NCBI GenBank assembly: GCA_902621165.1
Contig: CACNKX010000001.1
Location: 44,839 to 108,838 of the forward strand
Source: an uncultured Alphaproteobacteria bacterium
GTDB lineage: Bacteria > Pseudomonadota > Alphaproteobacteria > HIMB59 > GCA-002718135
Reading direction: 5' to 3'
Length of the DNA: 64,000 nt
Of this stretch, positions 41,680-55,622 are shown in pieces. A program made the position numbers and the translations under genes. The notes below the pieces were generated by a model. That model saw nothing but the letters and a program-made list of their open reading frames with translations. It was not told where the DNA came from and searched no databases. How positions within the stretch are numbered: position 1 is the first letter of the stretch; each line of letters starts with the position of its first letter.

Positions 41680-41680
41680 A

Positions 41681-42712: not shown

Positions 42713-42723
42713 TAAATGATTTC

Positions 42724-42753: not shown

Positions 42754-42777
42754 ATATTATTATTATTTTGGATGTAA

Positions 42778-44058
42778 TTATCCGCCGTATTTTTCTTTAA
42801 GTTGTTTTTCAACATCTTCATCCATACGCGTCCAAGCTTCTTCCATTGTCATTTCACCAACAATAGCTTGTCCTAATCTTGAGATAATTGCGTTAAACAT
42901 TATACGGTTGTCAACGTGTGCCTGAAGATCAAAAGCGACTTGATCAATAGTTGGCACTGCGCCAGCAAAAGTGTTTAATGCATGTTTTGCGTTTGGATCA
43001 TCAGTTTGATAGTCAACTTGTAGATCTAAGTGTCCAGGGATAGCAAGAACTTGACCAATAAAACTACTTAGTTGTTCTTTACTAGAAAGATAATCCATTA
43101 CCTTTCCAACAGCTGGATTAGCATTGAATGCTAATAGTGCATTTCCACCTGGCATTCCAGTACATGCAGCAGGACCACATGGAGCTGGTACAGCCCACCA
43201 ATCAAAATCATCTCCTACTTCATTTGCAAATCTTCCAATTTGCCATGAACCACTCATCATGAAAACTACCTCAGCAGCATTCCACCAATCATTTGGAGCA
43301 TGATATTTAGATCCTGAAACTGATCCCCAAAGATCTTTACTCATTGTACCTGCTTGGTGCCAGTCATAAAGCATTTGAGTCATAGCTTTTAATCCATCAT
43401 CAACTAATTTTGGATCACCATTTGAATCAAAATATTTCGCACCCATAGAAATCGCAGGGCCTGATACACGGTGACCTGATCTATCCCAAGCCATTGGTAT
43501 AGGAGTACCTGTTTTTTCTGCTACTTCAATTGAAACTGCTGCCCATTCTTCCCAAGTTGCACCAGGGCCTAATAGATCTACACCAGCTTGTTCAAATAGA
43601 GTTTTATTTACATATGGACCAGTAACGGTCATTGTAGAATGGAAACCATGAATTGAAGTTGTGTCTCCAGGCTTACGATACCAATTTAAAAAAGGACCGA
43701 AGCTTTTTTCATAGTAACTTGGATCAGCTACATAAGGCGTAATATCAGCATAATATTTGTTTAATCCACCAAGATCAGTAACACGAGCAATGTCAGGACC
43801 TTCACCAGCAGCAAGCTGGATAGGTAGAGTGTTCATTATTGCATCATATGGTACAATATCTAAAATTACATTTATATCTGGATTAGCTGCATTAAACTCA
43901 TCAATTTGTGCTGCAATTGGCACATTTTCTTTGTCTCCATCTCCATACCACATAATACGTACATCTGTGGCAGCAAAAGAAACTGCAGAAATTAAAGTTA
44001 ATGAGAATGAAACTAAAGCTACAGATATTGCTTTTAAAATAAACTTAAAGTTCATCAT
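42778..44058 (-). CDS. Extracellular solute-binding protein family 1 (CUT1 carbohydrate-binding protein)
   Basis: Signal peptide ...LTLISAVSFAA. 426 aa, typical SBP_bac_1 size and composition. GGAGGA SD upstream. Visibly higher G+C than flanking genes. Confidence 0.85.
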   Translation of the reverse strand: MMNFKFILKAISVALVSFSLTLISAVSFAATDVRIMWYGDGDKENVPIAAQIDEFNAANPDINVILDIVPYDAIMNTLPIQLAAGEGPDIARVTDLGGLNKYYADITPYVADPSYYEKSFGPFLNWYRKPGDTTSIHGFHSTMTVTGPYVNKTLFEQAGVDLLGPGATWEEWAAVSIEVAEKTGTPIPMAWDRSGHRVSGPAISMGAKYFDSNGDPKLVDDGLKAMTQMLYDWHQAGTMSKDLWGSVSGSKYHAPNDWWNAAEVVFMMSGSWQIGRFANEVGDDFDWWAVPAPCGPAACTGMPGGNALLAFNANPAVGKVMDYLSSKEQLSSFIGQVLAIPGHLDLQVDYQTDDPNAKHALNTFAGAVPTIDQVAFDLQAHVDNRIMFNAIISRLGQAIVGEMTMEEAWTRMDEDVEKQLKEKYGG

Positions 44059-44193: not shown

Positions 44194-45567
44194 ATGATTG
44201 GTTATTTAGCATTAGCAAGAAATACATTTGATATAAATTATGCTTTAGATAATAAAAAAAAGTTTGAAAAATTTATAGATATTTTAGACATTAAATACTC
44301 ACATTTTAAAGAATTAATTACAGATGATGAAACAGGAAAAAAAGCTATTAGATATTTTAAAAAACTAAATTGTAGCAAATATATTATTGCTCAAACAACT
44401 TTCACTGATGCAAAATTTATAACAAGTTTTGCTAAAACATTTAATAAACCAATACATTTAATAAGTTTTAAAGAGCCGAGAACAGGTAAACGGTTAAGAT
44501 TGAACTCTTTATGTGGTGTAAATCTTGCTATGCATTCTTTAGTTAAATTAAAATGTAAGCCAGAATTTTCAATATTTATTAATAATAAATTATTCGAAAT
44601 GGAAAAAATTAATAATTTTTTAAAAAATAAAAAAATTTTAAAAAATAATACATTGAAAAAAATAAAAAATTCTAAAAAGAAAGATGACATTATTTTTTCA
44701 AAAAAAAAGAATTTAGGACTTGTTGGAAAAAGACCAGATGGATTTTTTACCTGTGATTATGATAATAGAGAAATAGAAAAAAAATTAAATTATAGTCTTA
44801 AGAAAATTAAATTAGAAACTTTGTTTAAAATTTCTAAAAATGTTAGCACTAAAGATATTTCAAAAACTAAAAATCAAATAAAAAAAGATTTGAAATCAGT
44901 CTCTAAGTTGAATGCAAATGAATTAAATAAAAGTATTTCAATTTTTCATGGGTTAGAAAAAATAAAAAATGATAACAAAATTGATACTTTTGCAATTAAG
45001 TGTTGGCCTGAAATGTTTACTCAATTTGGATGTGCATCATGTGGTCCAATGGCTATGATGAATGAAAAGGGAGTTAGCAGTGCATGTGAAGCTGATGTAT
45101 TAGGAAGTATAAGTTGCGATATTTTAAATAAGATAAATAACAGACCGTCACTTTTAGTAGATGTTGTTGATTGTGATCCCAAAACTGATACTTTAGTTTT
45201 TTGGCATTGTGGATTAGCTCCAATTAGTATGGCAAAAAAAAATACAGCAAGTGCAACTGTACATTCTAATAGAAGGAAAGCATTGCTACATGATTTTGCA
45301 TTTAGACCTGGAAAAATAACAATATTTAGAGTTTCAAAATCAGAAAACAAATTAAAATTTATTGTTATTAAAGGTGAAGTTTTAGATAAAAAAAATTCAT
45401 TTTCAGGTACTTCGGGTGTTGTGAGATTTCAAACAAATACCTATCAAAAATTAGTTAGATTATTCACGTCTGGTGTCGAACATCATCTAGCATTCACATA
45501 TGGAGATGTATATTCAGAAATAAAAAAACTAAGTGCGCAATTAAATATTCCAATTTACACAACATGA
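44194..45567 (+). CDS. L-fucose/D-arabinose isomerase family protein (FucI-like) with a K/N-rich insertion
   Basis: The C-terminal half, KCWPEMF...CGPMAMMNEKGVSSACEADVLGSIS...VFWHCG...GVEHHLAFTYGD, is typical of the Fucose_iso/Arabinose_iso fold. A low-complexity KN-rich segment spans about aa 125-175. Confidence 0.65.
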   Translation: MIGYLALARNTFDINYALDNKKKFEKFIDILDIKYSHFKELITDDETGKKAIRYFKKLNCSKYIIAQTTFTDAKFITSFAKTFNKPIHLISFKEPRTGKRLRLNSLCGVNLAMHSLVKLKCKPEFSIFINNKLFEMEKINNFLKNKKILKNNTLKKIKNSKKKDDIIFSKKKNLGLVGKRPDGFFTCDYDNREIEKKLNYSLKKIKLETLFKISKNVSTKDISKTKNQIKKDLKSVSKLNANELNKSISIFHGLEKIKNDNKIDTFAIKCWPEMFTQFGCASCGPMAMMNEKGVSSACEADVLGSISCDILNKINNRPSLLVDVVDCDPKTDTLVFWHCGLAPISMAKKNTASATVHSNRRKALLHDFAFRPGKITIFRVSKSENKLKFIVIKGEVLDKKNSFSGTSGVVRFQTNTYQKLVRLFTSGVEHHLAFTYGDVYSEIKKLSAQLNIPIYTT

Positions 45568-46652
45568 AAACGAAAATTAAATATGGAGTTGTTGGAAGTG
45601 GACTAATGGGTTGTGAACATATTTCAAATATTAATCTTATAGATTCAGCTGAAGTAGTTGCCATCTCAGACAGTAATGAAAATTCAATAAATAAAGCTAA
45701 AAATCTTATCTCAAATGATATTAAAATCTATTCAAATAATAATGAAATTTTTAAAAATAATGAAGTGGATGCTTTTATTATTTCGACTCCCAATTTTACC
45801 CATCATGAAATTATTAAAGAAGCGTTAAAAACAAAAAAACATTTATTAATTGAAAAACCCTTATGTACAAAATTAGAAGATTGTCTTGAAATTAAAAAAT
45901 TATCAACTTCATATCCATCAGTAATATGGGTGGCTATGGAGTATAGGTACATGCCACCTGTTCAAAAAATGATCCAAGAAATAGATAGTAATAAAATTGG
46001 TAAGCTTAAAATGCTTTCAATTCGTGAACATAGATTTCCATTTCTCAAAAAAGTAGATGATTGGAATAGATTCCAAATAAACACCGGTGGAACATTAGTA
46101 GAAAAATGCTGTCATTTTTTTGATTTAATGCGCCTAATTACAAATAGTGAAGTTACACAAGTATATGCAAGTGGTGACCAAAGTGTAAATCATCTTAATG
46201 AAAATTATAATGGAAAAGTTCCTGATATATTGGACAATGCATTTGTAATTTTAGATTTTAAAAATGGAATAAGAAGTTCTTTAGAACTTTGTATGTTTGC
46301 AGAAAATTCAGAAATGCAAGAAGAGCTATGTGTTGTTGGAGATAAGGGTAAAATAGAAACAGGTGTGCCAGCTGATGCATCTGGAAAAAACTCTTCAGAA
46401 GTTAGAATAGGTTTAAGAAACTCTAAAAACGCAATTAAAGAATTAGTTGAGGTAGATAAAAAAATTTTATCAGCTGGGCAACATCATGGATCGACTTATT
46501 ATCAACATTTAGAATTTATTAAAGCAATTAATAATAATTTAAAACCACAAGTTTCTATAAACGATGGTCTTCATGCAGTGGCTATTGGAGAAGCAGCAGA
46601 GAAATCAATAAAAGAAAATCGTGTGGTTAAGATGAGTGAGTTTAATCGTTAA
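45564..46652 (+). CDS. Gfo/Idh/MocA-family oxidoreductase
   Basis: YGVVGSGLMGCEH and IEKPLC. ATGA overlap with the isomerase gene. Confidence 0.85.
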   Translation: MKTKIKYGVVGSGLMGCEHISNINLIDSAEVVAISDSNENSINKAKNLISNDIKIYSNNNEIFKNNEVDAFIISTPNFTHHEIIKEALKTKKHLLIEKPLCTKLEDCLEIKKLSTSYPSVIWVAMEYRYMPPVQKMIQEIDSNKIGKLKMLSIREHRFPFLKKVDDWNRFQINTGGTLVEKCCHFFDLMRLITNSEVTQVYASGDQSVNHLNENYNGKVPDILDNAFVILDFKNGIRSSLELCMFAENSEMQEELCVVGDKGKIETGVPADASGKNSSEVRIGLRNSKNAIKELVEVDKKILSAGQHHGSTYYQHLEFIKAINNNLKPQVSINDGLHAVAIGEAAEKSIKENRVVKMSEFNR

Positions 46653-47577
46653 AATTTTCAAAAAATTTATTTGTTTTATCAATTATAAAATTACTTACTC
46701 TAACGTTTGATTCAGCAGTTACACCTGCAATATGAGGTGTTAAGATGCAATTCATATCATTTGTAATGTTGTTATAAAATGCTTCATTTACTGGTTCATT
46801 TTCAAAAACATCTAATGCGAAACCAGAGATATATTTATTTTTATAAGCATCAATTAAGTCTTTCTCATTGATGACGCCACCCCTAGAAGAATTAATTATA
46901 ATTGGTTGTTTTTTCATTTTAATAAAAGCTTGTCTGTCAAATAGATACTTTGTTTCATTATTTAATGGGACATGAATAGAAATTATGTCAGCCAAATTAA
47001 GAATTTCATCAAATGAAACTTTCTTAACATTTTCTGTCTCCATTTGTTTCAAAGTTATAAAAGGATCATATGCAATACAGCTAACATCAAAAACATTTAC
47101 AAGATTTAAAACTTTTTTTGAAATATCCCCAAAACCTATTAGACCAAGAGTCTTTCCTTTAAGTTCTTTTGTAACAATTGATGTCCTTGGCCATTTTCCT
47201 TGTCGAGTTTGTTCTTTAATAATGTGAGTTTTTTTTAATAATGTAAGAGAAGAATTCACAACGTATTCTGCAACAGAGTCAGAATTCATACCTGTTGCTG
47301 GCTGAACAATGATATTATTTTTTTTACAGTATTCTGTATCTATATTATCAAGACCAACACCTAATCTTCCTATAAACTTTAAATTTGACGCATTTATTAA
47401 AATTTTCTTATCTAAACTTGTTTTATTCCTTACGATGATGCCATCAAATTTCTGAATTTCTCTTTCTAAAAAATCTTTATTTTGCCAGGCATCTTTTTTA
47501 TAAATTACATCGAATTTTTTATTTATATTTTGCAAAGATTGTGAATCTATAAATTCTGTAATTAAAATTTTTGTCAT
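46642..47577 (-). CDS. D-3-phosphoglycerate-dehydrogenase-like D-2-hydroxyacid dehydrogenase
   Basis: GKTLGLIGFGDISKKV NAD motif, INSSRGGVI, and the catalytic His context LTPHIAGVT. Confidence 0.8.
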   Translation of the reverse strand: MTKILITEFIDSQSLQNINKKFDVIYKKDAWQNKDFLEREIQKFDGIIVRNKTSLDKKILINASNLKFIGRLGVGLDNIDTEYCKKNNIIVQPATGMNSDSVAEYVVNSSLTLLKKTHIIKEQTRQGKWPRTSIVTKELKGKTLGLIGFGDISKKVLNLVNVFDVSCIAYDPFITLKQMETENVKKVSFDEILNLADIISIHVPLNNETKYLFDRQAFIKMKKQPIIINSSRGGVINEKDLIDAYKNKYISGFALDVFENEPVNEAFYNNITNDMNCILTPHIAGVTAESNVRVSNFIIDKTNKFFENFND

Positions 47578-48482
47578 TTAATTTTTCTAATTTTTAATTT
47601 TTTTAAAAACTTTTTTACGTTGTTTAAATTTGGTATTGAATATATGCCTCCAGCTTTCATGCATTTTAAAGTTGCAGTAGCTGCTGCCAATTGAATACTT
47701 TGAGAGTTTGATTTATTTAATGATAGAGCTGTTGCAAAAGCACCATGAAAAACATCTCCTGCACAATTCGTTTCAACTGTTTTTACTTTTGGAACATTAC
47801 AATGATATAATGAGTTATTTTCAACCCAATAAACACCTTTTGATCCCATAGTAACTGCAACAAATTTATTTGTTTCATTGAATATTTGAAAAAGAGCCTT
47901 TTGCATATTGATGTTTTTTTTATAAGTTTTCAAACCTTCTTCAGAAAATATAGGGTGCGAAGCTTTGTGAACAATTTCAGAAATTTTATTAGAATTTTTA
48001 AAATTATCTAGATCAGCAACACATTTAATATTTTTTTTATTGGTATTAATAGCAATATAAGAGGCCATATCTATCCATCTCATATCTATTGAATAAATAT
48101 CCCTTTTTTTAAAATTTAATTTGGGTATTTTCTTATAATCAAGTAATTTTGGATCATTGTATGCTGCTAGTAATCTTTCACCTTTTGTATCCTCAATTAC
48201 AAAGCTTTGCGAAGACTGACATTTTTTAATAAAAATTGATTTACTAGTATTAATAGAAAATTTTTTTAATTCATTTTTTAAAAAGACTGATGAATCATCA
48301 TCTCCAAATTTTCCTATGAATTTTGATTCAGAACCCAAAATTTTTGCAGTAAATGCCGATACTGCTGCTGAACCACCTAATCTTTTATCAATACCTTTAG
48401 ATAAAACTTTAATTGGTTTTTTTGGAAATTTATTAATCCTACTTATGTAATCTGTAAATATTGATCCTGCGCAAATGATCAT
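47574..48482 (-). CDS. PfkB-family carbohydrate kinase
   Basis: N-terminal GGSAAVSA (the GG motif) and C-terminal TNCAGDVFHGAFA (a variant of the DTxGAGD anion-hole motif). Confidence 0.75.
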   Translation of the reverse strand: MIICAGSIFTDYISRINKFPKKPIKVLSKGIDKRLGGSAAVSAFTAKILGSESKFIGKFGDDDSSVFLKNELKKFSINTSKSIFIKKCQSSQSFVIEDTKGERLLAAYNDPKLLDYKKIPKLNFKKRDIYSIDMRWIDMASYIAINTNKKNIKCVADLDNFKNSNKISEIVHKASHPIFSEEGLKTYKKNINMQKALFQIFNETNKFVAVTMGSKGVYWVENNSLYHCNVPKVKTVETNCAGDVFHGAFATALSLNKSNSQSIQLAAATATLKCMKAGGIYSIPNLNNVKKFLKKLKIRKIK

Positions 48483-48492
48483 AAAATATTAA

Positions 48493-49062
48493 TTAAAGGT
48501 ATTTAACTTTACCAATAAACTTTCTAAACCTATCTCTTATAGTTATAGGATTGAGTGGAATGGGATCAATTTTAACATTTCCAGAATTGATCTTTGAAAT
48601 TATTACATATGAATTATCTTTATCATCAATGGCTTTGTTCAATTCATTAACTGTTTCCTCGCCAGAACATTCAATCACATTTTTGCAGCCAGCTCCTAAT
48701 GCAACATCCTTTAAGGAAGTTTTCTCATCAGTAAATGTTCGTTGATCTCCTGTTGATCCATAAGAACCATTATCAATTATCAATAAAGTATAGTTTGATG
48801 GCGCTCTATTACCTATTGTTGCTAGGGTATTCATATTCATTAAAACTGATCCATCACCATCTATACTAATAACGTGTTTATTTTGGGACAGTGCTAAGCC
48901 TAAGCCAATAGAAGATGATAAGCCCATACTGCCTAACATATAAAAAAAATTTGGTTGATCACTAATTTTATATAATTCTTGAGATGGAAGACCTATATTA
49001 CAAATAACTAAGTTATCTTTAAGAATATTTTGTACCTTATTTAACAAATCAAAACGGTTCAT
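48493..49062 (-). CDS. comE: ThDP-dependent decarboxylase, beta subunit (sulfopyruvate/phosphonopyruvate decarboxylase ComE-type)
   Basis: ThDP/Mg motif IDGDGSVLMNMNTLATIG...LLIIDNGSYGSTGDQ. 189 aa with only the PP-binding domain. 4-nt overlap with the alpha subunit gene. Confidence 0.65.
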   Translation of the reverse strand: MNRFDLLNKVQNILKDNLVICNIGLPSQELYKISDQPNFFYMLGSMGLSSSIGLGLALSQNKHVISIDGDGSVLMNMNTLATIGNRAPSNYTLLIIDNGSYGSTGDQRTFTDEKTSLKDVALGAGCKNVIECSGEETVNELNKAIDDKDNSYVIISKINSGNVKIDPIPLNPITIRDRFRKFIGKVKYL

Positions 49063-49559
49063 TTATCATCTTTCATTAAATTGAAGTCACATAAAATAGC
49101 TACTGGTGATTCAACAACTTTGGCATGTTTGCTAAATGTTGAAATTTTATCTAATTCTTTTTCAGAAGAGCAATGCAAAATAGGTATTCTCAACGTTTGT
49201 AAAATATCTTCAGTAATCTTCGCCATTCCACCTTGCGCTCCTACTGGCTCACCAGGTGTACCCCTGTAACTAATTAAAAAAACAACAGGCATTTGATATA
49301 ATTGTAATAGAGAAACAATTGCATTCACTGAATTTCCAATCCCTGTATTCTGCATCATTATACACGGGAATTTATTTCCTAAATAAGCTCCAGCACAAAT
49401 ACCCATACCTTCTTCCTCTCTTGGTACAGCCGAATAATAAATATCTTTATCATTTTCAAGAATATCAATCATGTTGGCTAATAACTTACAAGGAACACTT
49501 AAGTAAAAATCTACTCCACCTTTTTTTAAATTATCTATGATTTTTTTACTGATTTTCAT
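49059..49559 (-). CDS. comD: ThDP-dependent decarboxylase, alpha subunit (ComD-type, pyrimidine-binding domain)
   Basis: VDFYLSVPCKLL, PREEEGMGICAGAYLG and MQNTGIGNSVNAIVSL follow ComD and the N-terminal half of phosphonopyruvate decarboxylases. 166 aa. Confidence 0.65.
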   Translation of the reverse strand: MKISKKIIDNLKKGGVDFYLSVPCKLLANMIDILENDKDIYYSAVPREEEGMGICAGAYLGNKFPCIMMQNTGIGNSVNAIVSLLQLYQMPVVFLISYRGTPGEPVGAQGGMAKITEDILQTLRIPILHCSSEKELDKISTFSKHAKVVESPVAILCDFNLMKDDK

Positions 49560-49605: not shown

Positions 49606-50658
49606 TTATTTAAAATCATTTCTTAATTTTATTTTTGTATTTGAATTATATGTTTCGCCTACTTTTAATATAGTTGATGGAAAATTTGGTTGATTAATAG
49701 CATCTGGAAAAATTTGCGTCTCTAGACACATACCATATTGTAATCCATAATTTCGATTATGTTTGCCATGATATGAATCTTTCATCATATTACCAGTATA
49801 AAATTGTATTCCAGGTTGATCAGTCGAGTATTCAACTCCCATACCAGTAATATTACTGTAGATGGCAGCTATAGATTGATCAATAGAATGATCTTTGAGA
49901 ACATAATTGTGATCAATACCACCGCCATCTAAAAAAGATTTATTTATTTCAAATGAATTATTAAGATCATATTTCGTATTAACTACATCGAATAATTTAC
50001 CAGTAGGAATTGATCCCTCATCAGTTTCGCAAATTTGATTAGATGATATTCTTACAACATGGTCAGTAATATTTTTATAATTATCTTTATGGCCATGGAA
50101 ATTCCAATAGTTATGATTAGTCATATTAACAATAGTATCTTGATCTGTAGTAGCATTAAAGGAAATTAGAATTTCGTTATTATTATTAAGTTCGTAAATA
50201 GTTTTACAATTTAGGTTGCCTGGATAATTTTCTTCTAAATGTTTAGACTGGTAAGTGAGCTCTACTTTTATACTTTGGCTCGTTTTTTTAATATCGGCTA
50301 TTTTCCAAATCTTTTTATTGAAACCTATCTCTCCACCATGAAGATGATCAGGTTCAGTATTAGAATATAAATTATATTCTTTCCCATTAAGAGTAAATTT
50401 ACTTTGCCCTATTCTATTACAAACTCTTCCAATAATTGAATTGAAATATCCATGAGCTTCCAAGCAATCATCTAAATTACCATAACCTAATAAAACATCC
50501 TCTGTTTCAGAAACATTCGAAGAAATTGGAATACAAACTTCACTCATATAACCACCATAAGTATAAAAACTAAAACTATAATTGTTTGAGTTAATAATAT
50601 TAACTATGTCAATATCTAAGCCTTTATCATTTTGAAGTTTGGCAATTTTATATTCCAT
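49606..50658 (-). CDS. Aldose 1-epimerase (galactose-mutarotase fold)
   Basis: GRVCNRI, HLHGG, TNHNYWNF and CLETQ.FPDA motifs. 350 aa. Confidence 0.85.
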   Translation of the reverse strand: MEYKIAKLQNDKGLDIDIVNIINSNNYSFSFYTYGGYMSEVCIPISSNVSETEDVLLGYGNLDDCLEAHGYFNSIIGRVCNRIGQSKFTLNGKEYNLYSNTEPDHLHGGEIGFNKKIWKIADIKKTSQSIKVELTYQSKHLEENYPGNLNCKTIYELNNNNEILISFNATTDQDTIVNMTNHNYWNFHGHKDNYKNITDHVVRISSNQICETDEGSIPTGKLFDVVNTKYDLNNSFEINKSFLDGGGIDHNYVLKDHSIDQSIAAIYSNITGMGVEYSTDQPGIQFYTGNMMKDSYHGKHNRNYGLQYGMCLETQIFPDAINQPNFPSTILKVGETYNSNTKIKLRNDFK

Positions 50659-51557
50659 TATGTTTTCCTTAATCTTTGAAAATTATTTTTTCTTTGTTGA
50701 AGATAAATGATTAATCCACCTAAAACTATGAAAAAAGCACCTGGCAAAAGTTGATCAACTGGCCATTCTGCAAAAAATATCCAACCTAAAATAAGTGCAA
50801 AAAATATCTCGATATAATCAAATGGCATAATTTTACTAAGTTCTGCTTTTCTAGCACCATATATTAAAAGTAAAGTTCCAGATCCTCCTGCAATCCCCAT
50901 TATACAAACTACTAAGAAATCATTTATACTTTTGAAATTTTCCCACATACCAAAAAACACCACTAACATACATGCAACTATGATTGTCCCTGTTTGACCA
51001 TACAAGTTGATAAGTGGTGAAGGAACATGATCTTCAAAACTTAAGGATGTTACCCTTGCTAATGAATATCCAAAAGCAGCAAGTATAGGAAGTAATAACA
51101 TATAATTAAAGTCTGATGACCAAGGTTGCATAATTAAAACGATACCTACAAAACCAGAAATTACTGCACTCATTTTGTACCAACCAAATTTTTCACCTAA
51201 TAAAGGAATAGCAAGAAGGGTGACCATCATGGGCCCAGTGTATTCCATGGTAGCGACTAAAGCAAAAGGTAAGTAAGCATAAGAAGTATAGAGACATAAT
51301 TGAGCCAATGCTACAAATACTCCGCGGAACAATCCTAACTTCCATTGCGTTATTTTTATTTGTCTACCGTTTTGATACCAATCATGTGAAAAATATAAAG
51401 CAATAACACAAGGGATCATTCCAAATAAATTTCTAAAAACAGAAAGTTGAGCTGCTGGATATTCGTTTCGTAAAAACTTTATCGCAATCCCCATACAATC
51501 CAATAAAAACAAACCTGAAAGTGATAATATAACGGCTAAAAATAAATTATTTTTCAT
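50658..51557 (-). CDS. EamA/DMT-superfamily permease
   Basis: 299 aa, about 10 TM helices. 1-nt overlap with the mutarotase start. Confidence 0.7.
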   Translation of the reverse strand: MKNNLFLAVILSLSGLFLLDCMGIAIKFLRNEYPAAQLSVFRNLFGMIPCVIALYFSHDWYQNGRQIKITQWKLGLFRGVFVALAQLCLYTSYAYLPFALVATMEYTGPMMVTLLAIPLLGEKFGWYKMSAVISGFVGIVLIMQPWSSDFNYMLLLPILAAFGYSLARVTSLSFEDHVPSPLINLYGQTGTIIVACMLVVFFGMWENFKSINDFLVVCIMGIAGGSGTLLLIYGARKAELSKIMPFDYIEIFFALILGWIFFAEWPVDQLLPGAFFIVLGGLIIYLQQRKNNFQRLRKT

Positions 51558-51570: not shown

Positions 51571-52629
51571 TTATTCTAAAATAATTTCTTTTCCTACTTC
51601 ATGACTTTTATAAATTCCATCTAAAATTTTCATTACTTGTAGAGAGTGTTCAGCCGGAATAGTAACTGGTTGGTCGTTTGCAACAAACTCTGCAAACTCG
51701 ATACATTCTTTGGCATGAGGTTCAATAGTGTCTTTTAAATTTCCTTCAATTTTTTTAGTTATGTGAGTTTGAGAATTGATATCATTTTTTATAATCTCAC
51801 AATTAGGCCAATGCAAACCAGCTTCTCTTCCGTATAACCATACCTGCATATCTTCTATTTTATCTTCTGGTAGTTTATGATGAAGCATCCATGATACTTC
51901 AAGCATCAAGGTTGCACCATTTTTAAACCTAACAAATGCAGCTGCAAAATCTTCAACGTTCATTGCTTTCTTATCGTACTCACCATTGTAACTAAAAGAA
52001 TTTGGCTGCTTTGCTAATTCTGTTTTTGACACACCTGTCACAGAAAGTGGTTCTGGATTGTTCATAAACCAAAGAGTTAAATCTAATACGTGCACCCCTA
52101 TATCAATACAAGGCCCTCCTCCTGAATTTTCTTTTTTTAAAAAACCAAGTGAGACTGGTAAAAAATTTCTTCTTAGCATCCAAGAACGTGCATGATATAT
52201 CGAACCAATTGATTTGGATTGATCTTTTATTAATTGAGAATCTTTTCTAAATCTAAAGTGTTGAGCACACATTAATTTTTTTTTCTTTTGATCTCTTACT
52301 TCAATCATTTTTTTTATTTGTGAGGCATTTGGAGCTAAGGGTTTTTCACATAAAACATCTTTGCCTGCTTGCATTGCTTTAATTGCTAAATCACAATGAT
52401 AGTTATTAGGTGCACAAATATCTATTACATCTATATCTGGATCATTAATCATATCTAAGGGATCAAGATATAATTTTTTTATTTGATTTATATTGCCCCA
52501 ATCTTCAAGAATAGAATTATTTATATCGGAACCTGCTATTAATTCTGCATGTTCTGACATGCGCCAACCAGGTACATGTAACTTTGCAATACCCCCAACG
52601 CCAATAATGCCAACTTTTATTTTACTCAT
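51571..52629 (-). CDS. Gfo/Idh/MocA-family oxidoreductase
   Basis: VGIIGVGGIAKLH, CEKPLA and GGGPCIDIGVHVLD. Confidence 0.85.
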   Translation of the reverse strand: MSKIKVGIIGVGGIAKLHVPGWRMSEHAELIAGSDINNSILEDWGNINQIKKLYLDPLDMINDPDIDVIDICAPNNYHCDLAIKAMQAGKDVLCEKPLAPNASQIKKMIEVRDQKKKKLMCAQHFRFRKDSQLIKDQSKSIGSIYHARSWMLRRNFLPVSLGFLKKENSGGGPCIDIGVHVLDLTLWFMNNPEPLSVTGVSKTELAKQPNSFSYNGEYDKKAMNVEDFAAAFVRFKNGATLMLEVSWMLHHKLPEDKIEDMQVWLYGREAGLHWPNCEIIKNDINSQTHITKKIEGNLKDTIEPHAKECIEFAEFVANDQPVTIPAEHSLQVMKILDGIYKSHEVGKEIILE

Positions 52630-52644
52630 ATTTATATTTTTAAT

Positions 52645-53634
52645 TTAGATATTTATCCATTTTTTTTCTTTTTCTGATTGGTAAATTGATTCCATTATAC
52701 TACTTCTCAATGCTGCTTCTGTAGGAGTAACTAGATTTTTAGTATTGTTATCAATTAATGAATTGAGAAACAAATCAAATGCATGAGGTAATGTTTCTGG
52801 TAAATTTTCTTCTATTCTTTCTATTTTTTTACCCTCCTTATTTTCGTTTATAATTAATTGCTCATTCGTTGTTCTTGCGTGAGCTTTCGTTCCACTCACA
52901 AAAATAGTATAAGGCTGCGCTATATCTATCCATCCCGCAGCAATACTAGCTATCAACCCGCTTTTAAATTTTATTAAAGCTTCTCCACTTTCTTCACAAT
53001 CTGGATATTGATTATATACTTTTGTAAAGGTTGCGCTCACAGACTCAACATCAGAAAAAAACCATAAAAGAAGATCTAAAACATGTGTTCCTAAATCACC
53101 AAAAGCTCCGACTCCTGCAACTTTAGGATCTGTCATCCATTGATAGTTTTTGAAAATATCCCTCATAATACCATCGTGACAATTAATGAGTCGAATTCTT
53201 GAAATTTCGCCAAAATAATTAGCAGTAATTAATTGTTTAAGCTTTATGTAAACAGGGTTGCTTCTCATGAAATATCCAGTTTGAAAAATAATTTTTGAAG
53301 ACTCAATAAGATTTGCCATTTCAAAAGAGTCTTTTTTTCCTATCCCCAAAGGTTTTTCTATAAAACAGTGTTTTTTATTCTCGGTAATTTTTTTAACTAA
53401 TTCATAGTGCAAATTAGTTTCTGAACATACTATAACACCATCTAAATTAGGTTCTTTCAATAAATCAACATAGTTATCATAATTCTTACATTGCAGTTTA
53501 TCAGAGTCACTTTTTGACCTATTCTTGTCTTTGTCCCAAACACCAATACAATTAATTTTAATGTTTGAAATTACCTTAGAAATAAAATTTGGTGTATGAA
53601 TATGAGAGGTTCCAATAAATGCTATATTTTTCAT
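52645..53634 (-). CDS. Gfo/Idh/MocA-family oxidoreductase
   Basis: IAFIGTSHIHTPNF, IEKPLG and GDLGTHVLD. Confidence 0.8.
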   Translation of the reverse strand: MKNIAFIGTSHIHTPNFISKVISNIKINCIGVWDKDKNRSKSDSDKLQCKNYDNYVDLLKEPNLDGVIVCSETNLHYELVKKITENKKHCFIEKPLGIGKKDSFEMANLIESSKIIFQTGYFMRSNPVYIKLKQLITANYFGEISRIRLINCHDGIMRDIFKNYQWMTDPKVAGVGAFGDLGTHVLDLLLWFFSDVESVSATFTKVYNQYPDCEESGEALIKFKSGLIASIAAGWIDIAQPYTIFVSGTKAHARTTNEQLIINENKEGKKIERIEENLPETLPHAFDLFLNSLIDNNTKNLVTPTEAALRSSIMESIYQSEKEKKWINI

Positions 53635-53652: not shown

Positions 53653-54639
53653 TTATAGAGCACAACACTGATCGACCCAGTGACCTGGTTCAACTTCAAT
53701 AAGGCTCATTTTTATTTCTCCACCTTTGCAATCTACTCCAGGATTAGGACATCTGGTTTTAAACACACAACCTGGAGGTGGATTTAATGCGCTCGGAATT
53801 TCTCCCTTTAGTTCTATAGCTTCAGATCTTTTCTCTGGATCAATTGATGGAATAGAAGATAATAGTGCTTTTGTATAAGAATGTTTTGGGTTCTTAAATA
53901 ATTCTCTTGAGGGTCCCATTTCAACTATGTGCCCCAAATACATAACTGCAACAACATCACATACATGAGCTACTACACTTAAATCATGACTTATGAATAA
54001 ATAAGTTAGGTTAAGCTCGGTTTGAAGTTGTTTTAAAAGGTTTAATATATCTGCTTGTATTGATACATCTAAAGCAGCAACACTTTCGTCTGCTACTATA
54101 AATTTTGGATTACTTACTAAGGCTCTTGCAATTGATATTCTTTGTCTTTGTCCTCCAGAAAATGCATGAGGAAATCTTCTTAAATGCTCAATATTTAATC
54201 TACATTTTGAAGCAATATCTCTTACTCTTTCATCAGTTTCTTGTCTTGAGTTTGTTATTTTCATCACCTCTAAAGGCTCTGCAATAATATCCCTCACTGT
54301 CATTCTTGGACTTAGAGCAGCATAAGGATCTTGAAAAATTAATTGAGCTTTTTTTCTATATTCTTTTAAATCTTGTTTGTTCATATCTGTTAAATCATAA
54401 TCTCTTTCATCATCATGAAAAATAACATTCCCAGAACTAATTTTATTAGCTCCAAGTATTGCTCTACCAAGAGTAGTTTTTCCTGAACCAGATTCACCCA
54501 CTAAACCAAAAAAAGATCCTTTTTTAATTTTGATATTGATATTGTTTACTGCATGTATTTTTTGTTTTTTTGAAATAAAATTTTCTTGATAATCAAAATT
54601 TACTGAAACATTATTTACTGAAATTAAATTATCACCCAT
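53653..54639 (-). CDS. Dpp/Opp-type ABC transporter ATP-binding protein (DppF/OppF-like) with a Cys-rich C-terminus
   Basis: Walker A GESGSGKTT, signature FSGGQRQRISIARA, and C-terminal CVFKTRCP...C...QCC. I prefer the ATG at 54639 (MGDNLISV), an 8-nt overlap with the upstream stop. The track ORF extends to 54693. Confidence 0.88.
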   Translation of the reverse strand: MGDNLISVNNVSVNFDYQENFISKKQKIHAVNNINIKIKKGSFFGLVGESGSGKTTLGRAILGANKISSGNVIFHDDERDYDLTDMNKQDLKEYRKKAQLIFQDPYAALSPRMTVRDIIAEPLEVMKITNSRQETDERVRDIASKCRLNIEHLRRFPHAFSGGQRQRISIARALVSNPKFIVADESVAALDVSIQADILNLLKQLQTELNLTYLFISHDLSVVAHVCDVVAVMYLGHIVEMGPSRELFKNPKHSYTKALLSSIPSIDPEKRSEAIELKGEIPSALNPPPGCVFKTRCPNPGVDCKGGEIKMSLIEVEPGHWVDQCCAL

Positions 54640-55621
54640 TTTGACCACACTTAATTCCACATTGATCAACCCAGTGACCTGGTTCAACTTCAATTAATTT
54701 CATTTCTATTTTACCATCTTTTCCTTCTGGATTATGATGGGGGCATCTAGTTCTAAATACACACCCTGTTGGTCTATCTAATGGACTTGGAATATTTCCA
54801 GGTATTGGAGATAACGGTGCGTCTAAGTTATTTATGTCAGGTAAAGCTTGTAATAACCCTTTTGTATAAGGATGTTTTGGATTTTTAAGGATCTCATTTA
54901 CTGGACCTTTCTCCACTACACTTCCCAAATACATAACCGCTACATGATCAGCTACCTGTGCAATAACACCTAGATCGTGAGTAATAAATATTACTCCCAT
55001 TTGATATTCTCTAATAATATCTTTAATTAGGTTAATTACTTGAGCTTGAATTGTTACATCTAAAGCAGTTGTTGGCTCATCTGCTAATAAAAGTTTAGGC
55101 ATTGTTGATAGTGCCATAGCTATCATTGCTCTTTGACGCATTCCGCCAGATAATTCAAATGCATATTGATTAAACCGTTTTTCTGCATCTGCTATGCCTA
55201 CTCTTTTTAGCATGTTAATGGATATTGATTTTGCTTCCTCTTTATTAATATTTTTATGAATTAGTAATTGCTCAACCATTTGTGCACCAATTTTTATTGC
55301 TGGAGCAAAACTTGCCATAGGCTCTTGAAAAATCATTGATACTTTACCACCTCTTATTTTTTTTAAGTCTTGCTTAGAGGTAAATTGAAGAACATTTTCA
55401 TTGTCTAAAATTATTTCTGCGTCTTCATTATAAGAAGTATTACCTGGATTTAATTTCATAATCGATTTAGCAGTCACAGATTTACCTGATCCAGATTCAC
55501 CAACTATACCAAGTACTTCACCTTGATCTACAGAAAGAGAGATATTTTCAACTGCTGTAATTCTACCTTCATCAGTATCAAATTTTACATCTAAATTTTT
55601 TACTTCTAATAAATGACTCAT
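54632..55621 (-). CDS. Dpp/Opp-type ABC transporter ATP-binding protein (DppD/OppD-like) with a Cys-rich C-terminus
   Basis: Walker A GESGSGKSV, signature LSGGMRQRAMIAMA, and C-terminal CVFRTRCP...QCGIKC. Confidence 0.9.
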   Translation of the reverse strand: MSHLLEVKNLDVKFDTDEGRITAVENISLSVDQGEVLGIVGESGSGKSVTAKSIMKLNPGNTSYNEDAEIILDNENVLQFTSKQDLKKIRGGKVSMIFQEPMASFAPAIKIGAQMVEQLLIHKNINKEEAKSISINMLKRVGIADAEKRFNQYAFELSGGMRQRAMIAMALSTMPKLLLADEPTTALDVTIQAQVINLIKDIIREYQMGVIFITHDLGVIAQVADHVAVMYLGSVVEKGPVNEILKNPKHPYTKGLLQALPDINNLDAPLSPIPGNIPSPLDRPTGCVFRTRCPHHNPEGKDGKIEMKLIEVEPGHWVDQCGIKCGQNG

Positions 55622-55622
55622 A

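What the first reader, a model, noticed from the sequence alone, without database searches (positions are those of the whole stretch)
48493..49559. Split ComD/ComE-type ThDP decarboxylase embedded in a sugar-processing operon
Two overlapping genes (166 and 189 aa) encode separate pyrimidine-binding and pyrophosphate-binding halves of a minimal ThDP decarboxylase (REEEGMGICAGAYLG, MQNTGIGNS; GDGSVLMN...IDNGSYGSTGDQ). This two-subunit architecture, lacking the middle domain, is the one known for sulfopyruvate decarboxylase (ComDE) and, when fused, for phosphonopyruvate decarboxylase.

Here it has none of its usual partners in the window: no PEP mutase, no Xsc and no CoM genes. Instead it sits between an aldose 1-epimerase and a PfkB sugar kinase, in one overlap-coupled transcription unit. 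That context is not the one described for either known activity.
Basis: partly seen in the sequence, partly recalled or inferred. Interest (0 to 1): 0.68.

Follow-up and report, generated by a model that had tools for sequence, protein, structure and literature searches.

The report
Sulfopyruvate decarboxylase inside a sulfoquinovose operon
The split thiamine enzyme is most likely an ordinary sulfopyruvate decarboxylase, and its "sugar" neighbours are genes for breaking down sulfoquinovose, the plant and algal sulfosugar. Together they suggest that an abundant open-ocean bacterial clade (HIMB59/AEGEAN-169) consumes this sulfosugar by a gene combination not yet described.

Summary
Two ORFs with an ATGA overlap (49059-49559 and 48493-49062, minus strand) encode the PYR and PP halves of a minimal ThDP decarboxylase. 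Both pass NCBIfam's curated ComD/ComE cut-offs and fail the phosphonopyruvate decarboxylase model. The closest annotated relatives (ComE 55-59% identity) are Roseobacter ComDE in canonical DHPS/sulfolactate clusters.

The neighbours are sulfoquinovose (SQ) genes:
- a GH188 NAD+-dependent sulfoquinovosidase (361 bits to FlSqgA, all catalytic and sulfonate residues conserved);
- an SftI-like SQ isomerase;
- a YihV-like sulfofructose kinase;
- a mutarotase;
- a D-2-hydroxyacid dehydrogenase, candidate (S)-sulfolactate dehydrogenase;
- a DMT permease.

Seven sister loci add a YihT-family aldolase. The block is conserved across HIMB59/AEGEAN-169 genomes and is present in marine metatranscriptome assemblies.

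Best explanation: a tandem sulfo-EMP → sulfolactate → sulfopyruvate → sulfoacetaldehyde route.

Unassigned:
- the aldolase in this window;
- the sulfolactaldehyde dehydrogenase;
- the fate of sulfoacetaldehyde (no Xsc in the window).

I found no paper describing this coupling or SQ use by this clade. It is a new variant of a known kind, of moderate interest.

The parts
49059..49559 (-). ComD, sulfopyruvate decarboxylase alpha subunit (PYR domain, catalytic Glu in REEEG)
   Evidence: Pfam TPP_enzyme_N. TIGR03845 161.8 bits against a cut-off of 147.95, and TIGR03297 (Ppd) only 99.8 against 312.5. 41-43% identity to Roseobacter ComD and 31% to the Priestia split Ppd.
48493..49062 (-). ComE, sulfopyruvate decarboxylase beta subunit (PP domain, GDGS...DNGSYGSTGDQ ThDP/Mg motif)
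   Evidence: Pfam TPP_enzyme_C. TIGR03846 223.3 bits against a cut-off of 221.5. 55-59% identity to Roseobacter ComE in DHPS clusters, 41% to the Priestia split Ppd and 31-35% to AepY. ATGA overlap with ComD.
47574..48482 (-). YihV-like PfkB kinase, candidate sulfofructose kinase
   Evidence: Best PDB hit is 7AG6, E. coli sulfofructose kinase (161.5 bits, E 2.8e-46, full length). The next hit, an unnamed 'Sugar kinase' (2RBC), scores 100.3 bits and ribokinases score 62 or less. YihV residues D13, K27, S95, R138, W139, D162 and D244 are invariant in 65 orthologues, and N109 is always Ala. IMG names a cluster member 'sulfofructose kinase'.
46642..47577 (-). D-isomer-specific 2-hydroxyacid dehydrogenase, candidate (S)-sulfolactate dehydrogenase producing sulfopyruvate
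   Evidence: Pfam 2-Hacid_dh and 2-Hacid_dh_C. The best solved relatives are phosphoglycerate dehydrogenases, which places it only at family level. 4-nt overlap with the kinase. It lies directly after ComE in L062. The substrate is an inference.
45564..46652 (+). GH188 NAD+-dependent sulfoquinovosidase (SqgA homologue)
   Evidence: 360.6 bits to FlSqgA 8QC2, 350.2 to ArSqgA 8QC3, 324 to RdSqgA 8ZN9, and the next GFO structure only 109. PDB identities confirmed. ArSqgA K107, Y136, E189, H193, H321 and the sulfonate residues R166, L170, K172 are all conserved.
44194..45567 (+). SftI/SqvD-like sulfoquinovose-sulfofructose isomerase candidate (L-fucose isomerase-like), overlapping the SqgA gene by 4 nt
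   Evidence: The only significant NCBIfam hit is NF048012, sulfoquinovose isomerase SftI (285.6 bits, full length, below the cut-off of 700; a second hit has E 0.0092). 33% identity to the isomerase of the Zymomonas pZZM402 SQ-type cluster, which has the same isomerase-then-GFO order.
49606..50658 (-). Aldose 1-epimerase, candidate sulfoquinovose mutarotase
   Evidence: Pfam Aldose_epim. The best PDB hit is human galactose mutarotase, so this is a family-level assignment only. Present upstream of ComD in 71 of 74 loci. 32% identity to the epimerase in the Zymomonas cluster.
50658..51557 (-). EamA/DMT permease, candidate exporter of the sulfonate end product (or sulfite)
   Evidence: Pfam EamA x2. 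1-nt overlap with the epimerase gene. Present in 71 of 74 loci. The role is inferred.
51571..53634 (-). Two GFO/IDH/MocA oxidoreductases, accessory (absent from many sister loci), function open
   Evidence: Pfam and NCBIfam family-level hits only. Missing in, for example, L011, L013 and L021.
53653..59927 (-). Opp/Dpp-type ABC importer (family-5 binding protein, two permeases, two ATPases) at the head of the same transcription unit; substrate unknown
   Evidence: Pfam SBP_bac_5, BPD_transp_1 and OppC_N. ATPase and permease ORFs are listed. Conserved upstream of ComDE in most loci.
38523..44058 (-). CUT1 sugar ABC importer (family-1 binding protein, two permeases, a second 2-hydroxyacid-dehydrogenase-like gene, UgpC ATPase), transcribed divergently from the isomerase-SqgA operon; candidate SQ/SQ-glycerol importer
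   Evidence: Pfam SBP_bac_1, BPD_transp_1 and 2-Hacid_dh_C. UgpC. It is not similar to the solved SQGro-binding protein SmoF (best PDB hit 34 bits), so the substrate is unproven.

Best explanation
The two genes encode a genuine sulfopyruvate decarboxylase (ComDE, EC 4.1.1.79). It acts as the last recognisable step of a tandem sulfoquinovose (SQ) pathway in a HIMB59/AEGEAN-169 bacterium. The proposed route is as follows.

1. SQ glycosides are imported by an ABC system. Which of the two systems does this is not resolved.
2. The GH188 NAD+-dependent sulfoquinovosidase (45564-46652) releases SQ.
3. The aldose 1-epimerase interconverts the SQ anomers.
4. The SftI-like isomerase (44194-45567) makes sulfofructose.
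5. The YihV-like kinase (47574-48482) makes sulfofructose-1-phosphate.
6. An aldolase gives DHAP and (S)-sulfolactaldehyde. It is YihT-family and clustered in seven sister loci, but it is not encoded in this window.
7. An unidentified dehydrogenase gives (S)-sulfolactate.
8. The D-specific 2-hydroxyacid dehydrogenase (46642-47577) oxidises (S)-sulfolactate to 3-sulfopyruvate.
9. ComDE decarboxylates 3-sulfopyruvate, with ThDP and Mg2+, to sulfoacetaldehyde and CO2.
10. Sulfoacetaldehyde is either desulfonated by an Xsc encoded elsewhere, or reduced or oxidised and exported, possibly through the EamA permease.

Shown here: family identities, residue conservation, synteny, and presence in RNA-derived assemblies. 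Inferred: every substrate assignment, steps 6 and 7, and the fate of sulfoacetaldehyde.
For: ComDE identity:
- Both subunits exceed NCBIfam's curated equivalog cut-offs, while the phosphonopyruvate decarboxylase model scores less than half its cut-off.
- ComE is 55-59% and ComD 41-43% identical to Roseobacter ComDE. Those lie in TRAP - HpsN-like - SDR - ADH - ComD - ComE - alpha-hydroxy-acid oxidase clusters, one with xsc nearby.
- The motif IDGDGS...IIDNGSYGSTGDQ is shared with those proteins but not with the phosphonate-cluster enzyme.

SQ context:
- SqgA homologue at 361/350/324 bits with all eight functional residues conserved.
- The kinase is closest to YihV, with K27, R138 and D244 invariant over 65 orthologues.
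- The isomerase matches only the SftI model significantly.
- A Zymomonas plasmid has an aldolase / epimerase / isomerase / GFO (48% identity) / SSADH cluster plus a PfkB that is 61% identical to YihV.
- A YihT/LacD-family aldolase (PRK12858, 316.9 bits against a cut-off of 184) heads the isomerase-SqgA operon in 7 sister loci.

Linkage:
- 62 of 73 informative loci have the kinase directly after ComE.
- 46 of 58 loci have the kinase, the 2HADH, SqgA and the isomerase, although these proteins have diverged to about 50-60% identity.
- Gene overlaps or gaps of 10-46 nt join the genes.
- Metatranscriptome contigs span the EamA/epimerase, epimerase/ComD, ComD/ComE and ComE/kinase junctions.

Stereochemistry:
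- Sulfoglycolysis yields S-sulfolactaldehyde, then S-sulfolactate, then sulfopyruvate (PMC12421959).
- By the CIP rules, (S)-sulfolactate is the D-isomer. This is my inference, and it fits a D-specific 2-hydroxyacid dehydrogenase.
Against: - ComE clears its curated cut-off by only 1.8 bits.
- The window has no sulfofructose-phosphate aldolase, no SlaB/GabD-type sulfolactaldehyde dehydrogenase and no Xsc, so three steps are unassigned here.
- The kinase has Ala in place of YihV N109, one of the three sulfonate-triad residues.
- The isomerase scores far below the SftI cut-off (285.6 against 700).
- The 2-hydroxyacid dehydrogenase is placed only at family level.
- Neither binding protein resembles a known SQ binder.
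- Eleven loci keep ComDE but lack the kinase next to it, so ComDE is not strictly dependent on the SQ genes.
- No enzyme here has been assayed.
- RNA-run contigs can contain DNA carry-over.
Confidence: 0.7

Rival explanations
1. ComDE is a true sulfopyruvate decarboxylase, but it is functionally independent of the adjacent SQ genes. It would serve the catabolism of imported C3 sulfonates (sulfolactate, DHPS, cysteate) and merely sits at the edge of a flexible sugar island.
For: Eleven of 73 informative loci keep SBP5-ABC / EamA / epimerase / ComDE but lack the kinase directly after ComE. Eight of them lack the kinase, the 2HADH, SqgA and the isomerase altogether, and the sequence after ComE continues into genes that lie near 10-18 kb of this window. 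Roseobacter ComDE serves DHPS catabolism.
Against: Only 10 nt separate ComE from the kinase, and the kinase overlaps the 2HADH by 4 nt. RNA-derived contigs bridge the ComE/kinase junction. The linkage persists in 62 of 73 loci across about 50% protein divergence. No HpsN, SlcD, SuyAB or C3-sulfonate transporter is present in the window. The deletion variants have no evident sulfopyruvate source either.
Confidence: 0.14
2. The split ThDP enzyme has a new substrate drawn from sugar metabolism, for example a 2-keto-aldonate or a 2-keto-3-deoxy-sulfosugar acid, rather than sulfopyruvate.
For: It sits in an operon with sugar-type enzymes. ComE is only marginally above its equivalog cut-off. The window lacks the enzymes needed to make sulfolactate from sulfolactaldehyde. 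Several GFO/IDH/MocA dehydrogenases nearby could make aldonates.
Against: Both subunits pass the ComD/ComE equivalog models. ComE is 55-59% identical to ComE proteins from canonical sulfolactate/DHPS clusters and has an identical cofactor/active-site motif block. An adjacent 2-hydroxyacid dehydrogenase supplies the expected 2-oxo acid. The cluster has no aldonate dehydratase or lactonase.
Confidence: 0.08
3. It is a two-subunit phosphonopyruvate decarboxylase for phosphonate biosynthesis.
For: The best solved relative of ComE is a 'putative phosphonopyruvate decarboxylase beta subunit' (9IZ3, 84 bits). Split Ppd enzymes exist, for example on a Priestia plasmid next to a PEP-mutase-family gene.
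Against: TIGR03297 scores 99.8 and 133.6 against a cut-off of 312.5. Identity to the Priestia split Ppd (41% and 31%) and to AepY (31-35%) is well below that to ComDE. No PEP mutase or aminotransferase lies in 64 kb or in the 80 sister loci. The 9IZ3 ranking mainly reflects that no closer ComDE chain ranked above it in the PDB search.
Confidence: 0.02
4. The role is biosynthetic. Sulfoacetaldehyde would be made as a precursor of a sulfonate osmolyte or cofactor (taurine, isethionate or coenzyme-M-like) rather than as a catabolic intermediate.
For: ComDE was first defined in coenzyme M biosynthesis (established knowledge). An EamA permease is adjacent, and an aldo-keto reductase lies directly after ComE in L070 and one gene (UxuA) away in L046.
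Against: There are no ComA/B/C-type or cysteate synthase genes. The surrounding genes are importers and catabolic enzymes.
Confidence: 0.03

Closest known systems
Bacterial ComDE in the DHPS/sulfolactate degradation pathway of Roseobacter-group bacteria (HpsN, then SlcD, then ComDE, then Xsc; bifurcated sulfolactate pathway of Roseovarius nubinhibens)
   Same: The same two-subunit enzyme (55-59% and 41-43% identity, identical ThDP motif block). The alpha and beta genes overlap in the same way. A sulfolactate-oxidising dehydrogenase is encoded immediately downstream.
   Different: Here the upstream supply is a C6 sulfosugar pathway rather than DHPS import plus HpsN. The adjacent dehydrogenase is a D-2-hydroxyacid dehydrogenase rather than the FMN-type SlcD. 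No Xsc is linked.
Sulfo-EMP sulfoglycolysis (E. coli YihQRSTUV; Arthrobacter variant with SqgA and SlaB; sulfo-EMP2 with SqvD/SqiK/SqiA)
   Same: The same logic of sulfoquinovosidase, mutarotase, isomerase, sulfofructose kinase and (in sister loci) a LacD/YihT-family aldolase.
   Different: The set is a hybrid of an SftI/SqvD-type isomerase with a YihV-type kinase and a GH188 SQase. There is no SLA reductase (YihU) or SlaB. The aldolase is absent from this window. The pathway continues past sulfolactate through ComDE instead of excreting a C3 sulfonate.
Tandem sulfofucolytic - sulfolactate sulfolyase pathway of Paracoccus wurundjeri (PMC12421959)
   Same: One organism couples sulfosugar cleavage to further processing of S-sulfolactate via sulfopyruvate. 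It also lacks an identifiable SlaB/GabD sulfolactaldehyde dehydrogenase.
   Different: That pathway is ED-type on sulfofucose and ends with SlcC/ComC racemisation and SuyAB desulfonation. This one is EMP-type on (probably) SQ and ends with decarboxylation to a C2 sulfonate aldehyde.
Zymomonas mobilis plasmid pZZM402 cluster (annotation only, not characterised)
   Same: Aldose epimerase - SftI-like isomerase - GFO/SqgA-like in the same order, plus a YihV-type kinase. Identities to the window proteins are 32%, 33%, 48% and 33%.
   Different: It has a class II aldolase and an SSADH-type dehydrogenase, and it has no ComDE or 2-hydroxyacid dehydrogenase.

Membership tests
Sulfopyruvate decarboxylase ComDE (TIGR03845/TIGR03846) | Two separate subunits: alpha is the ThDP pyrimidine-binding domain, beta is the pyrophosphate-binding domain, and there is no middle domain | tested here: met
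   Pfam TPP_enzyme_N only in the 166-aa protein and TPP_enzyme_C only in the 189-aa protein. ATGA overlap.
Sulfopyruvate decarboxylase ComDE (TIGR03845/TIGR03846) | Score above the curated equivalog cut-offs | tested here: met
   Alpha 161.8 against 147.95. Beta 223.3 against 221.5, a margin of only 1.8 bits.
Sulfopyruvate decarboxylase ComDE (TIGR03845/TIGR03846) | Closer to ComDE from sulfolactate/DHPS pathways than to phosphonopyruvate decarboxylases | tested here: met
   55-59% (ComE) and 41-43% (ComD) identity to Roseobacter ComDE, against 41% and 31% to the Priestia split Ppd and 31-35% to AepY. No tree including archaeal ComDE was built.
Sulfopyruvate decarboxylase ComDE (TIGR03845/TIGR03846) | ThDP/Mg motif GDG-X(n)-N and the cofactor-activating Glu | tested here: met
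   GDGS...IIDNGSYGSTGDQ in ComE and REEEG in ComD, both conserved with Roseobacter ComDE.
Sulfopyruvate decarboxylase ComDE (TIGR03845/TIGR03846) | Genomic link to a sulfopyruvate source (a sulfolactate dehydrogenase) and a sulfoacetaldehyde sink (Xsc) | tested here: inconclusive
   A candidate source is present (the 2-hydroxyacid dehydrogenase at 46642-47577, plus the SQ genes). No Xsc occurs in the window or in 80 loci of +/-10 kb. The rest of the genome could not be searched.
Sulfopyruvate decarboxylase ComDE (TIGR03845/TIGR03846) | Decarboxylation of 3-sulfopyruvate to sulfoacetaldehyde | not testable with these tools
   Requires an enzyme assay.
Phosphonopyruvate decarboxylase (Ppd/AepY, TIGR03297) | Score above the equivalog cut-off, and linkage to PEP mutase | tested here: not met
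   99.8 and 133.6 bits against 312.5. No PEP mutase in the window or in sister loci.
GH188 NAD+-dependent sulfoquinovosidase (SqgA), for window 45564-46652 | Catalytic K107/Y136/E189/H193/H321 and the sulfonate triad R166/L170(backbone)/K172 (ArSqgA numbering) | tested here: met
   All are conserved in the alignments to 8QC3, 8QC2 and 8ZN9 at 324-361 bits.
Sulfofructose kinase YihV, for window 47574-48482 | K27-N109-R138 sulfonate triad, catalytic GXGD Asp244, and no TR/RRS phosphate motif | tested here: inconclusive
   K27, R138 and D244 (with D13, S95 and D162) are invariant, but N109 is Ala in all 65 orthologues, with N/S/T two residues on. YihV is the best solved relative.
Sulfoquinovose isomerase SftI (NF048012), for window 44194-45567 | Score above the curated cut-off | tested here: not met
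   285.6 bits against a cut-off of 700. It is a full-length homologue and this is the only significant family hit. No solved relative was found.
Sulfo-EMP gene cluster | Sulfofructose-1-phosphate aldolase (YihT or SqiA) in the cluster | tested here: not met
   No hit in the window (tblastn). It is present in 7 of 57 informative sister loci, and a 37-residue relic remains in L067.
Sulfo-EMP gene cluster | Sulfolactaldehyde reductase (YihU) or dehydrogenase (SlaB/GabD) | tested here: not met
   No aldehyde dehydrogenase or beta-hydroxyacid dehydrogenase occurs in the window or in the variant loci.

The most novel reading that the evidence does not exclude
HIMB59/AEGEAN-169, a streamlined clade reaching several percent of surface-ocean cells, would be a major overlooked consumer of sulfoquinovose. 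It would use an undescribed tandem route (GH188 SQase, SftI-type isomerase, YihV-type kinase, aldolase, sulfolactate, then ComDE) that turns the C3 sulfonate 'waste' of sulfoglycolysis into a C2 sulfonate or into acetyl phosphate plus sulfite within one cell. At least one step (sulfolactaldehyde oxidation, and in this lineage the aldol cleavage) would be carried out by a non-canonical enzyme.
Probability: 0.35. Interest if true: 0.75.

Novelty: new variant of a known kind. Interest (0 to 1): 0.55.

Why it matters
Sulfoquinovose is one of the largest organosulfur fluxes on Earth. Current marine surveys name Alteromonadaceae and Roseobacteraceae as the principal consumers (PMC12780224). That survey screened Tara Oceans data with a 54% identity cut-off to Roseobacter SqgA. 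The SqgA homologue here is about 45% identical, so this clade's genes would have been excluded.

The AEGEAN-169 genomics paper lists expanded sugar use but mentions no sulfonates. Two 2026 reviews of SQ catabolism mention neither sulfopyruvate/ComDE nor this clade.

If the locus works as proposed, three things follow:
- An abundant oligotroph joins the marine SQ cycle.
- A new "tandem" ending (decarboxylation rather than SuyAB lyase or excretion of a C3 sulfonate) is added to the sulfoglycolysis repertoire.
- The missing sulfolactaldehyde dehydrogenase problem, already noted in Paracoccus, gains a second test case.

For the enzyme itself the result is ordinary: it is most likely a ComDE orthologue, not a new activity.

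Tried and rejected
- **L062 GH31 as a sulfoquinovosidase.** I tested whether the GH31 glycosidase next to ComD in L062 and 10 other loci is a YihQ-type sulfoquinovosidase. YihQ scores only 86 bits against 212 for maltase-type GH31, so it is not used as evidence.
- **CUT1 binding protein versus SmoF.** The best PDB hit was 34 bits and SmoF was not among the hits. The transporter's substrate is left open.
- **Epimerase as an SQ mutarotase.** Only a family-level placement was possible; the best hit is human galactose mutarotase.
- **Search for Xsc, SlaB or an aldolase.** I looked among all ORFs of the window and among 108 ORFs of the 80 sister loci that lack a window counterpart. Only the YihT-family aldolase (7 loci) and a class I FBP aldolase (L062) turned up.
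- **Iol-type inositol pathway (IolC/IolD/IolG).** Considered because of the PfkB and many GFO genes. Rejected: the kinase scores 71 bits on IolC against 161 on YihV, and ComE scores only 19.7 bits on IolD.
- **Transketolase-type (sulfo-TK) role for the split ThDP enzyme.** Rejected on the ComDE equivalog scores.
- **Read laying.** Only 47650-51600 could be laid, so the kinase/2HADH junction and the isomerase-SqgA operon were not tested for RNA coverage.
- **Promoter and terminator scans.** Counts were at chance level for this AT-rich DNA.
Full report
**Observation.** The stop codon of the first and the start codon of the second share ATGA. Pfam finds only the N-terminal ThDP (pyrimidine-binding) domain in the first and only the C-terminal (pyrophosphate-binding) domain in the second. 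The pair is flanked by an aldose 1-epimerase and a PfkB kinase. It lies in a tight minus-strand run from 59927 to 46642 whose intergenic distances range from -62 to +86 nt. Family scans of essentially all ORFs of 110 aa or more in the 64-kb window found no PEP mutase, Xsc or coenzyme M gene.

**What the enzyme is.** Both subunits pass NCBIfam's curated equivalog cut-offs for sulfopyruvate decarboxylase. Alpha scores 161.8 against 147.95, and beta scores 223.3 against 221.5, a thin margin. The fused phosphonopyruvate decarboxylase model scores 99.8 and 133.6 against 312.5. The best solved relative is a "putative phosphonopyruvate decarboxylase beta subunit" at only 84 bits.

A protein-level search of annotated plasmids is more telling. 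The top hits are ComE of Roseobacter-group bacteria at 55-59% identity. A Priestia split enzyme beside a PEP-mutase-family gene is at 41%, and AepY proteins are at 31-35%. The Roseobacter genes lie in the textbook DHPS cluster: TRAP transporter, HpsN-like "histidinol dehydrogenase", SDR, ADH, ComD, ComE and an alpha-hydroxy-acid oxidase (SlcD-like), with xsc nearby in one case. ComD is 41-43% identical to the Roseobacter ComD proteins and 31% to the Priestia enzyme. The block IDGDGS...IIDNGSYGSTGDQ is shared with Roseobacter ComE but not with the phosphonate enzyme. I therefore file the pair as a ComDE orthologue.

**What the neighbourhood is.** The window has about 29% G+C. The 80 genome loci recovered with ComE come from single-cell and metagenome-assembled genomes labelled HIMB59, MarineAlpha5 or Pelagibacteraceae, that is, the AEGEAN-169/HIMB59 clade. 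The "sugar" genes turn out to be sulfosugar genes.

- **Sulfoquinovosidase.** The GFO/IDH/MocA protein at 45564-46652, convergent with the ComDE operon, matches PDB 8QC2, 8QC3 and 8ZN9 at 361, 350 and 324 bits, against 109 for the next GFO structure. These entries are the NAD+-dependent sulfoquinovosidases FlSqgA, ArSqgA and RdSqgA of family GH188. ArSqgA's catalytic K107, Y136, E189, H193 and H321 and its sulfonate-binding R166, L170 and K172 are all conserved.
- **Isomerase.** The gene immediately upstream, overlapping by 4 nt (44194-45567), has one significant NCBIfam hit: the sulfoquinovose isomerase SftI. The match is full length at 285.6 bits, which is below the cut-off of 700.
- **Kinase.** The PfkB kinase after ComE has E. 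coli sulfofructose kinase YihV as its best solved relative (161.5 bits). An unnamed sugar kinase scores 100 bits and ribokinases score 62 or less. Of YihV's K27-N109-R138 sulfonate triad (PMC8006165), K and R, together with D13, S95, D162 and the catalytic D244, are invariant in 65 orthologues spanning 51-99% identity. N109 is always Ala, with Asn/Ser/Thr two residues further on.
- **Comparator cluster.** The isomerase's best annotated relatives sit on Zymomonas mobilis plasmid pZZM402. The cluster there reads class II aldolase, aldose epimerase, isomerase, GFO (48% identical to the window SqgA), transporters and an SSADH-type dehydrogenase, plus a PfkB that is 61% identical to YihV. It has the same isomerase-then-SqgA order.
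- **Existing annotation.** IMG's automatic annotation already calls cluster members "sulfofructose kinase" and "sulfopyruvate decarboxylase subunit alpha". SqgA, the isomerase and the dehydrogenase carry generic or no names.

**Conservation and variants.**

- In 62 of 73 loci with enough downstream sequence, the YihV-like kinase follows ComE directly.
- In 46 of 58 loci, the kinase, the 2-hydroxyacid dehydrogenase, SqgA and the isomerase are all present.
- The epimerase and the EamA permease precede ComD in 71 of 74 loci.
- The SQ genes have diverged to 50-60% identity in some lineages while staying syntenic, which argues for selection on the arrangement.
- In seven of the more divergent loci, a LacD/YihT-family class I aldolase (PRK12858, 316.9 bits against a cut-off of 184) is the first gene of the aldolase-isomerase-SqgA operon. 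L067 keeps a 37-residue relic, and the window has no trace.
- Eleven loci lack the kinase next to ComE. In eight of them the whole SQ set and about 30 kb of other sugar genes are missing, and ComE abuts genes found near 10-18 kb of this window. ComDE therefore sits at the edge of a flexible island.
- In L062, ComE is followed directly by the 2-hydroxyacid dehydrogenase.

**Expression.** Marine metatranscriptome assemblies contain this stretch. Their contigs bridge the EamA/epimerase, epimerase/ComD, ComD/ComE and ComE/kinase junctions. This is consistent with one transcript, with the caveats that these are assembled contigs and that DNA carry-over is possible.

**Mechanism.** The best-supported reading is a tandem pathway.

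1. SQ glycoside is cleaved by SqgA.
2. SQ is handled by the mutarotase and the isomerase, giving sulfofructose.
3. The kinase makes sulfofructose-1-phosphate.
4. An aldolase gives DHAP and (S)-sulfolactaldehyde.
5. Oxidation gives (S)-sulfolactate.
6. The D-2-hydroxyacid dehydrogenase gives 3-sulfopyruvate.
7. ComDE gives sulfoacetaldehyde and CO2.

The sequence S-sulfolactaldehyde, then S-sulfolactate, then sulfopyruvate is the one given for sulfosugar-derived C3 sulfonates in PMC12421959. By the CIP priority rules, (S)-sulfolactate is the D-isomer. This is my inference, and it fits a D-specific 2-hydroxyacid dehydrogenase.

What is shown: family membership, residue conservation, synteny, and presence in RNA libraries. 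What is inferred: every substrate, the identity of the aldolase in this lineage, the sulfolactaldehyde dehydrogenase, and what happens to sulfoacetaldehyde. An Xsc may be encoded elsewhere. Alternatively the aldehyde may be reduced or oxidised and then exported through the EamA permease. An aldo-keto reductase lies directly after ComE in L070 and one gene away in L046, which is only suggestive. No SlaB/GabD homologue was found. The Paracoccus sulfofucose study met the same gap.

**Rivals.**

- ComDE may be a true sulfopyruvate decarboxylase that is only a neighbour of the SQ genes. The deletion variants favour this. The 10-nt spacing, the bridging RNA contigs and the conserved synteny argue against it.
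- A phosphonopyruvate decarboxylase role and a biosynthetic role are each unlikely, for lack of any partner genes.

**Comparison with what is known, and novelty.** The enzyme is a new member of a known family. The upper pathway is a mosaic of known parts: a GH188 SQase as in Arthrobacter and Roseobacter, an SftI/SqvD-type isomerase as in sulfo-TAL and sulfo-EMP2, and a YihV-type kinase and a YihT-type aldolase as in sulfo-EMP. The ending through a 2-hydroxyacid dehydrogenase and ComDE within the same operon is not in the literature I could search.

- Only one listed paper holds both "sulfopyruvate decarboxylase" and "sulfoquinovose", and there ComDE appears only in a DHPS scheme.
- Two 2026 reviews of SQ catabolism mention neither sulfopyruvate/ComDE nor SAR11/HIMB59 as SQ degraders.
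- None of the top-ranked papers in a search pairing HIMB59 with sulfonate terms contained HIMB59.
- The AEGEAN-169 genomics paper does not mention sulfonates.
- The 2025 mBio paper calls the coexistence of sulfoglycolysis and biomineralisation in one bacterium unusual.
- The Tara Oceans survey that named Alteromonadaceae and Roseobacteraceae as the principal marine SQ consumers used a 54% identity cut-off to RdSqgA. The window's SqgA is about 45% identical, so this clade would not have been counted.

**Verdict.** The finding is a new variant of a known kind, of moderate interest (0.55), mainly for marine sulfur-cycle ecology and for the unassigned steps, not for the decarboxylase itself.

Noticed in passing
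window ~17900-48490; L046, L055, L056, L070, L071, L074, L079, L080: About 30 kb of sugar-utilisation genes, including the SQ genes, form a flexible island. In eight sister loci the sequence right after ComE continues into genes that lie near 10-18 kb of this window (agmatinase, CFA synthase, OmpA-like protein).
   Followed up: partly
L026, L034, L036, L047 and others, compared with window 44194-48482: There is a steep divergence gradient inside the operon. ComDE stays at 92-97% identity while the kinase, the 2HADH, SqgA and the isomerase fall stepwise to about 80, 70, 63 and 56%. This suggests recombination that swaps deeply diverged alleles of the SQ module at the island edge.
   Followed up: partly
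L073 14883-15944 (-), and L060, L061, L065, L066, L069, L072; L067 14940-15050: A YihT/LacD-family class I aldolase heads the isomerase-SqgA operon in seven loci. L067 retains a 37-residue remnant, and the window lineage has lost it entirely.
   Followed up: yes
L062 7044-9458, and L034, L035, L036, L039, L040, L047, L050, L052, L063, L075: An 804-aa GH31 glycosidase with an alternative CUT1 ABC transporter is linked to the cluster in 11 loci. By score it resembles maltase/alpha-glucosidase rather than the sulfoquinovosidase YihQ. Its signature residues were not checked.
   Followed up: partly
L026 18061-20039; L027 12087-13909: One group of variant loci carries a second sulfatase (424 aa), a 230-aa protein resembling the C-terminal domain of EgtB/SenA (formylglycine-generating-enzyme-like fold), and a 607-aa protein with no family match.
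   Followed up: no
window 60079-61614 (+): A PehA-like sulfatase is transcribed divergently from the family-5 ABC importer operon and is conserved in most sister loci. It hints that the Opp-type importer may handle a sulfated rather than a sulfonated compound.
   Followed up: no
window 57820-57854: A strong 12-15-bp GC-containing hairpin followed by a T-run lies between the family-5 binding-protein gene and the first permease gene. It may be an attenuator giving excess binding protein.
   Followed up: no
L070 10599-11609; L046 11898-12902: In island-deletion variants an aldo-keto reductase (YdjG-like) lies directly after ComE in L070 and one gene (UxuA) away in L046. It could be a sulfoacetaldehyde reductase candidate, or simply the next gene after the deletion.
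   Followed up: no
window 17916-28805: An L-fucose-type utilisation block: Eda-type aldolase, KdgK, GH29 alpha-L-fucosidase, fuconolactonase-like amidohydrolase, enolase-superfamily dehydratase, aldo-keto reductase and a ribose-type ABC importer.
   Followed up: no
window 30084-31133 (-): An Ldh_2-family dehydrogenase scores equally on the ureidoglycolate dehydrogenase and L-sulfolactate dehydrogenase (ComC) models (about 212 bits, below both cut-offs). It lies next to a mannitol-dehydrogenase-family gene and close to UxuA. A link to sulfolactate was not examined.
   Followed up: no
window 49234-49497 and 49585-49614: RNA-run contig depth is several-fold higher over ComD than over its neighbours, and a promoter-like TTTAAA-18-TATAAT lies in the epimerase-ComD spacer. 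Contig depth is a poor measure, and promoter-like sites occur at chance frequency here.
   Followed up: no
L087 (Candidatus Chlorohelix allophototropha plasmid) 2419-18268: An SftI-like isomerase sits with a PPi-dependent phosphofructokinase, an SSADH-type dehydrogenase, sulfite reductase with siroheme genes, a PGDH-like 2-hydroxyacid dehydrogenase and a threonine-synthase-like gene. This may be another SQ cluster with sulfite assimilation.
   Followed up: no
window 35253-36467 (-), 12064-13089 (-), 16073-16408 (-): ORFs of 404, 341 and 111 aa with no family match: neither Pfam nor NCBIfam for the first two, and Pfam only for the third, which was not scanned against NCBIfam. The 404-aa ORF ends the CUT1 importer operon.
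   Followed up: no
window 2010-8676: A haem biosynthesis cluster (hemJ, hemF, hemH, hemE, a 502-aa hemC with a C-terminal extension, and 5-aminolevulinate synthase) with a cytochrome b561 gene.
   Followed up: no
window 53653-54693 / 54632-55621: The two ABC ATPase ORFs overlap by 62 nt as listed. The TTG start of the downstream one is probably called too far upstream.
   Followed up: no
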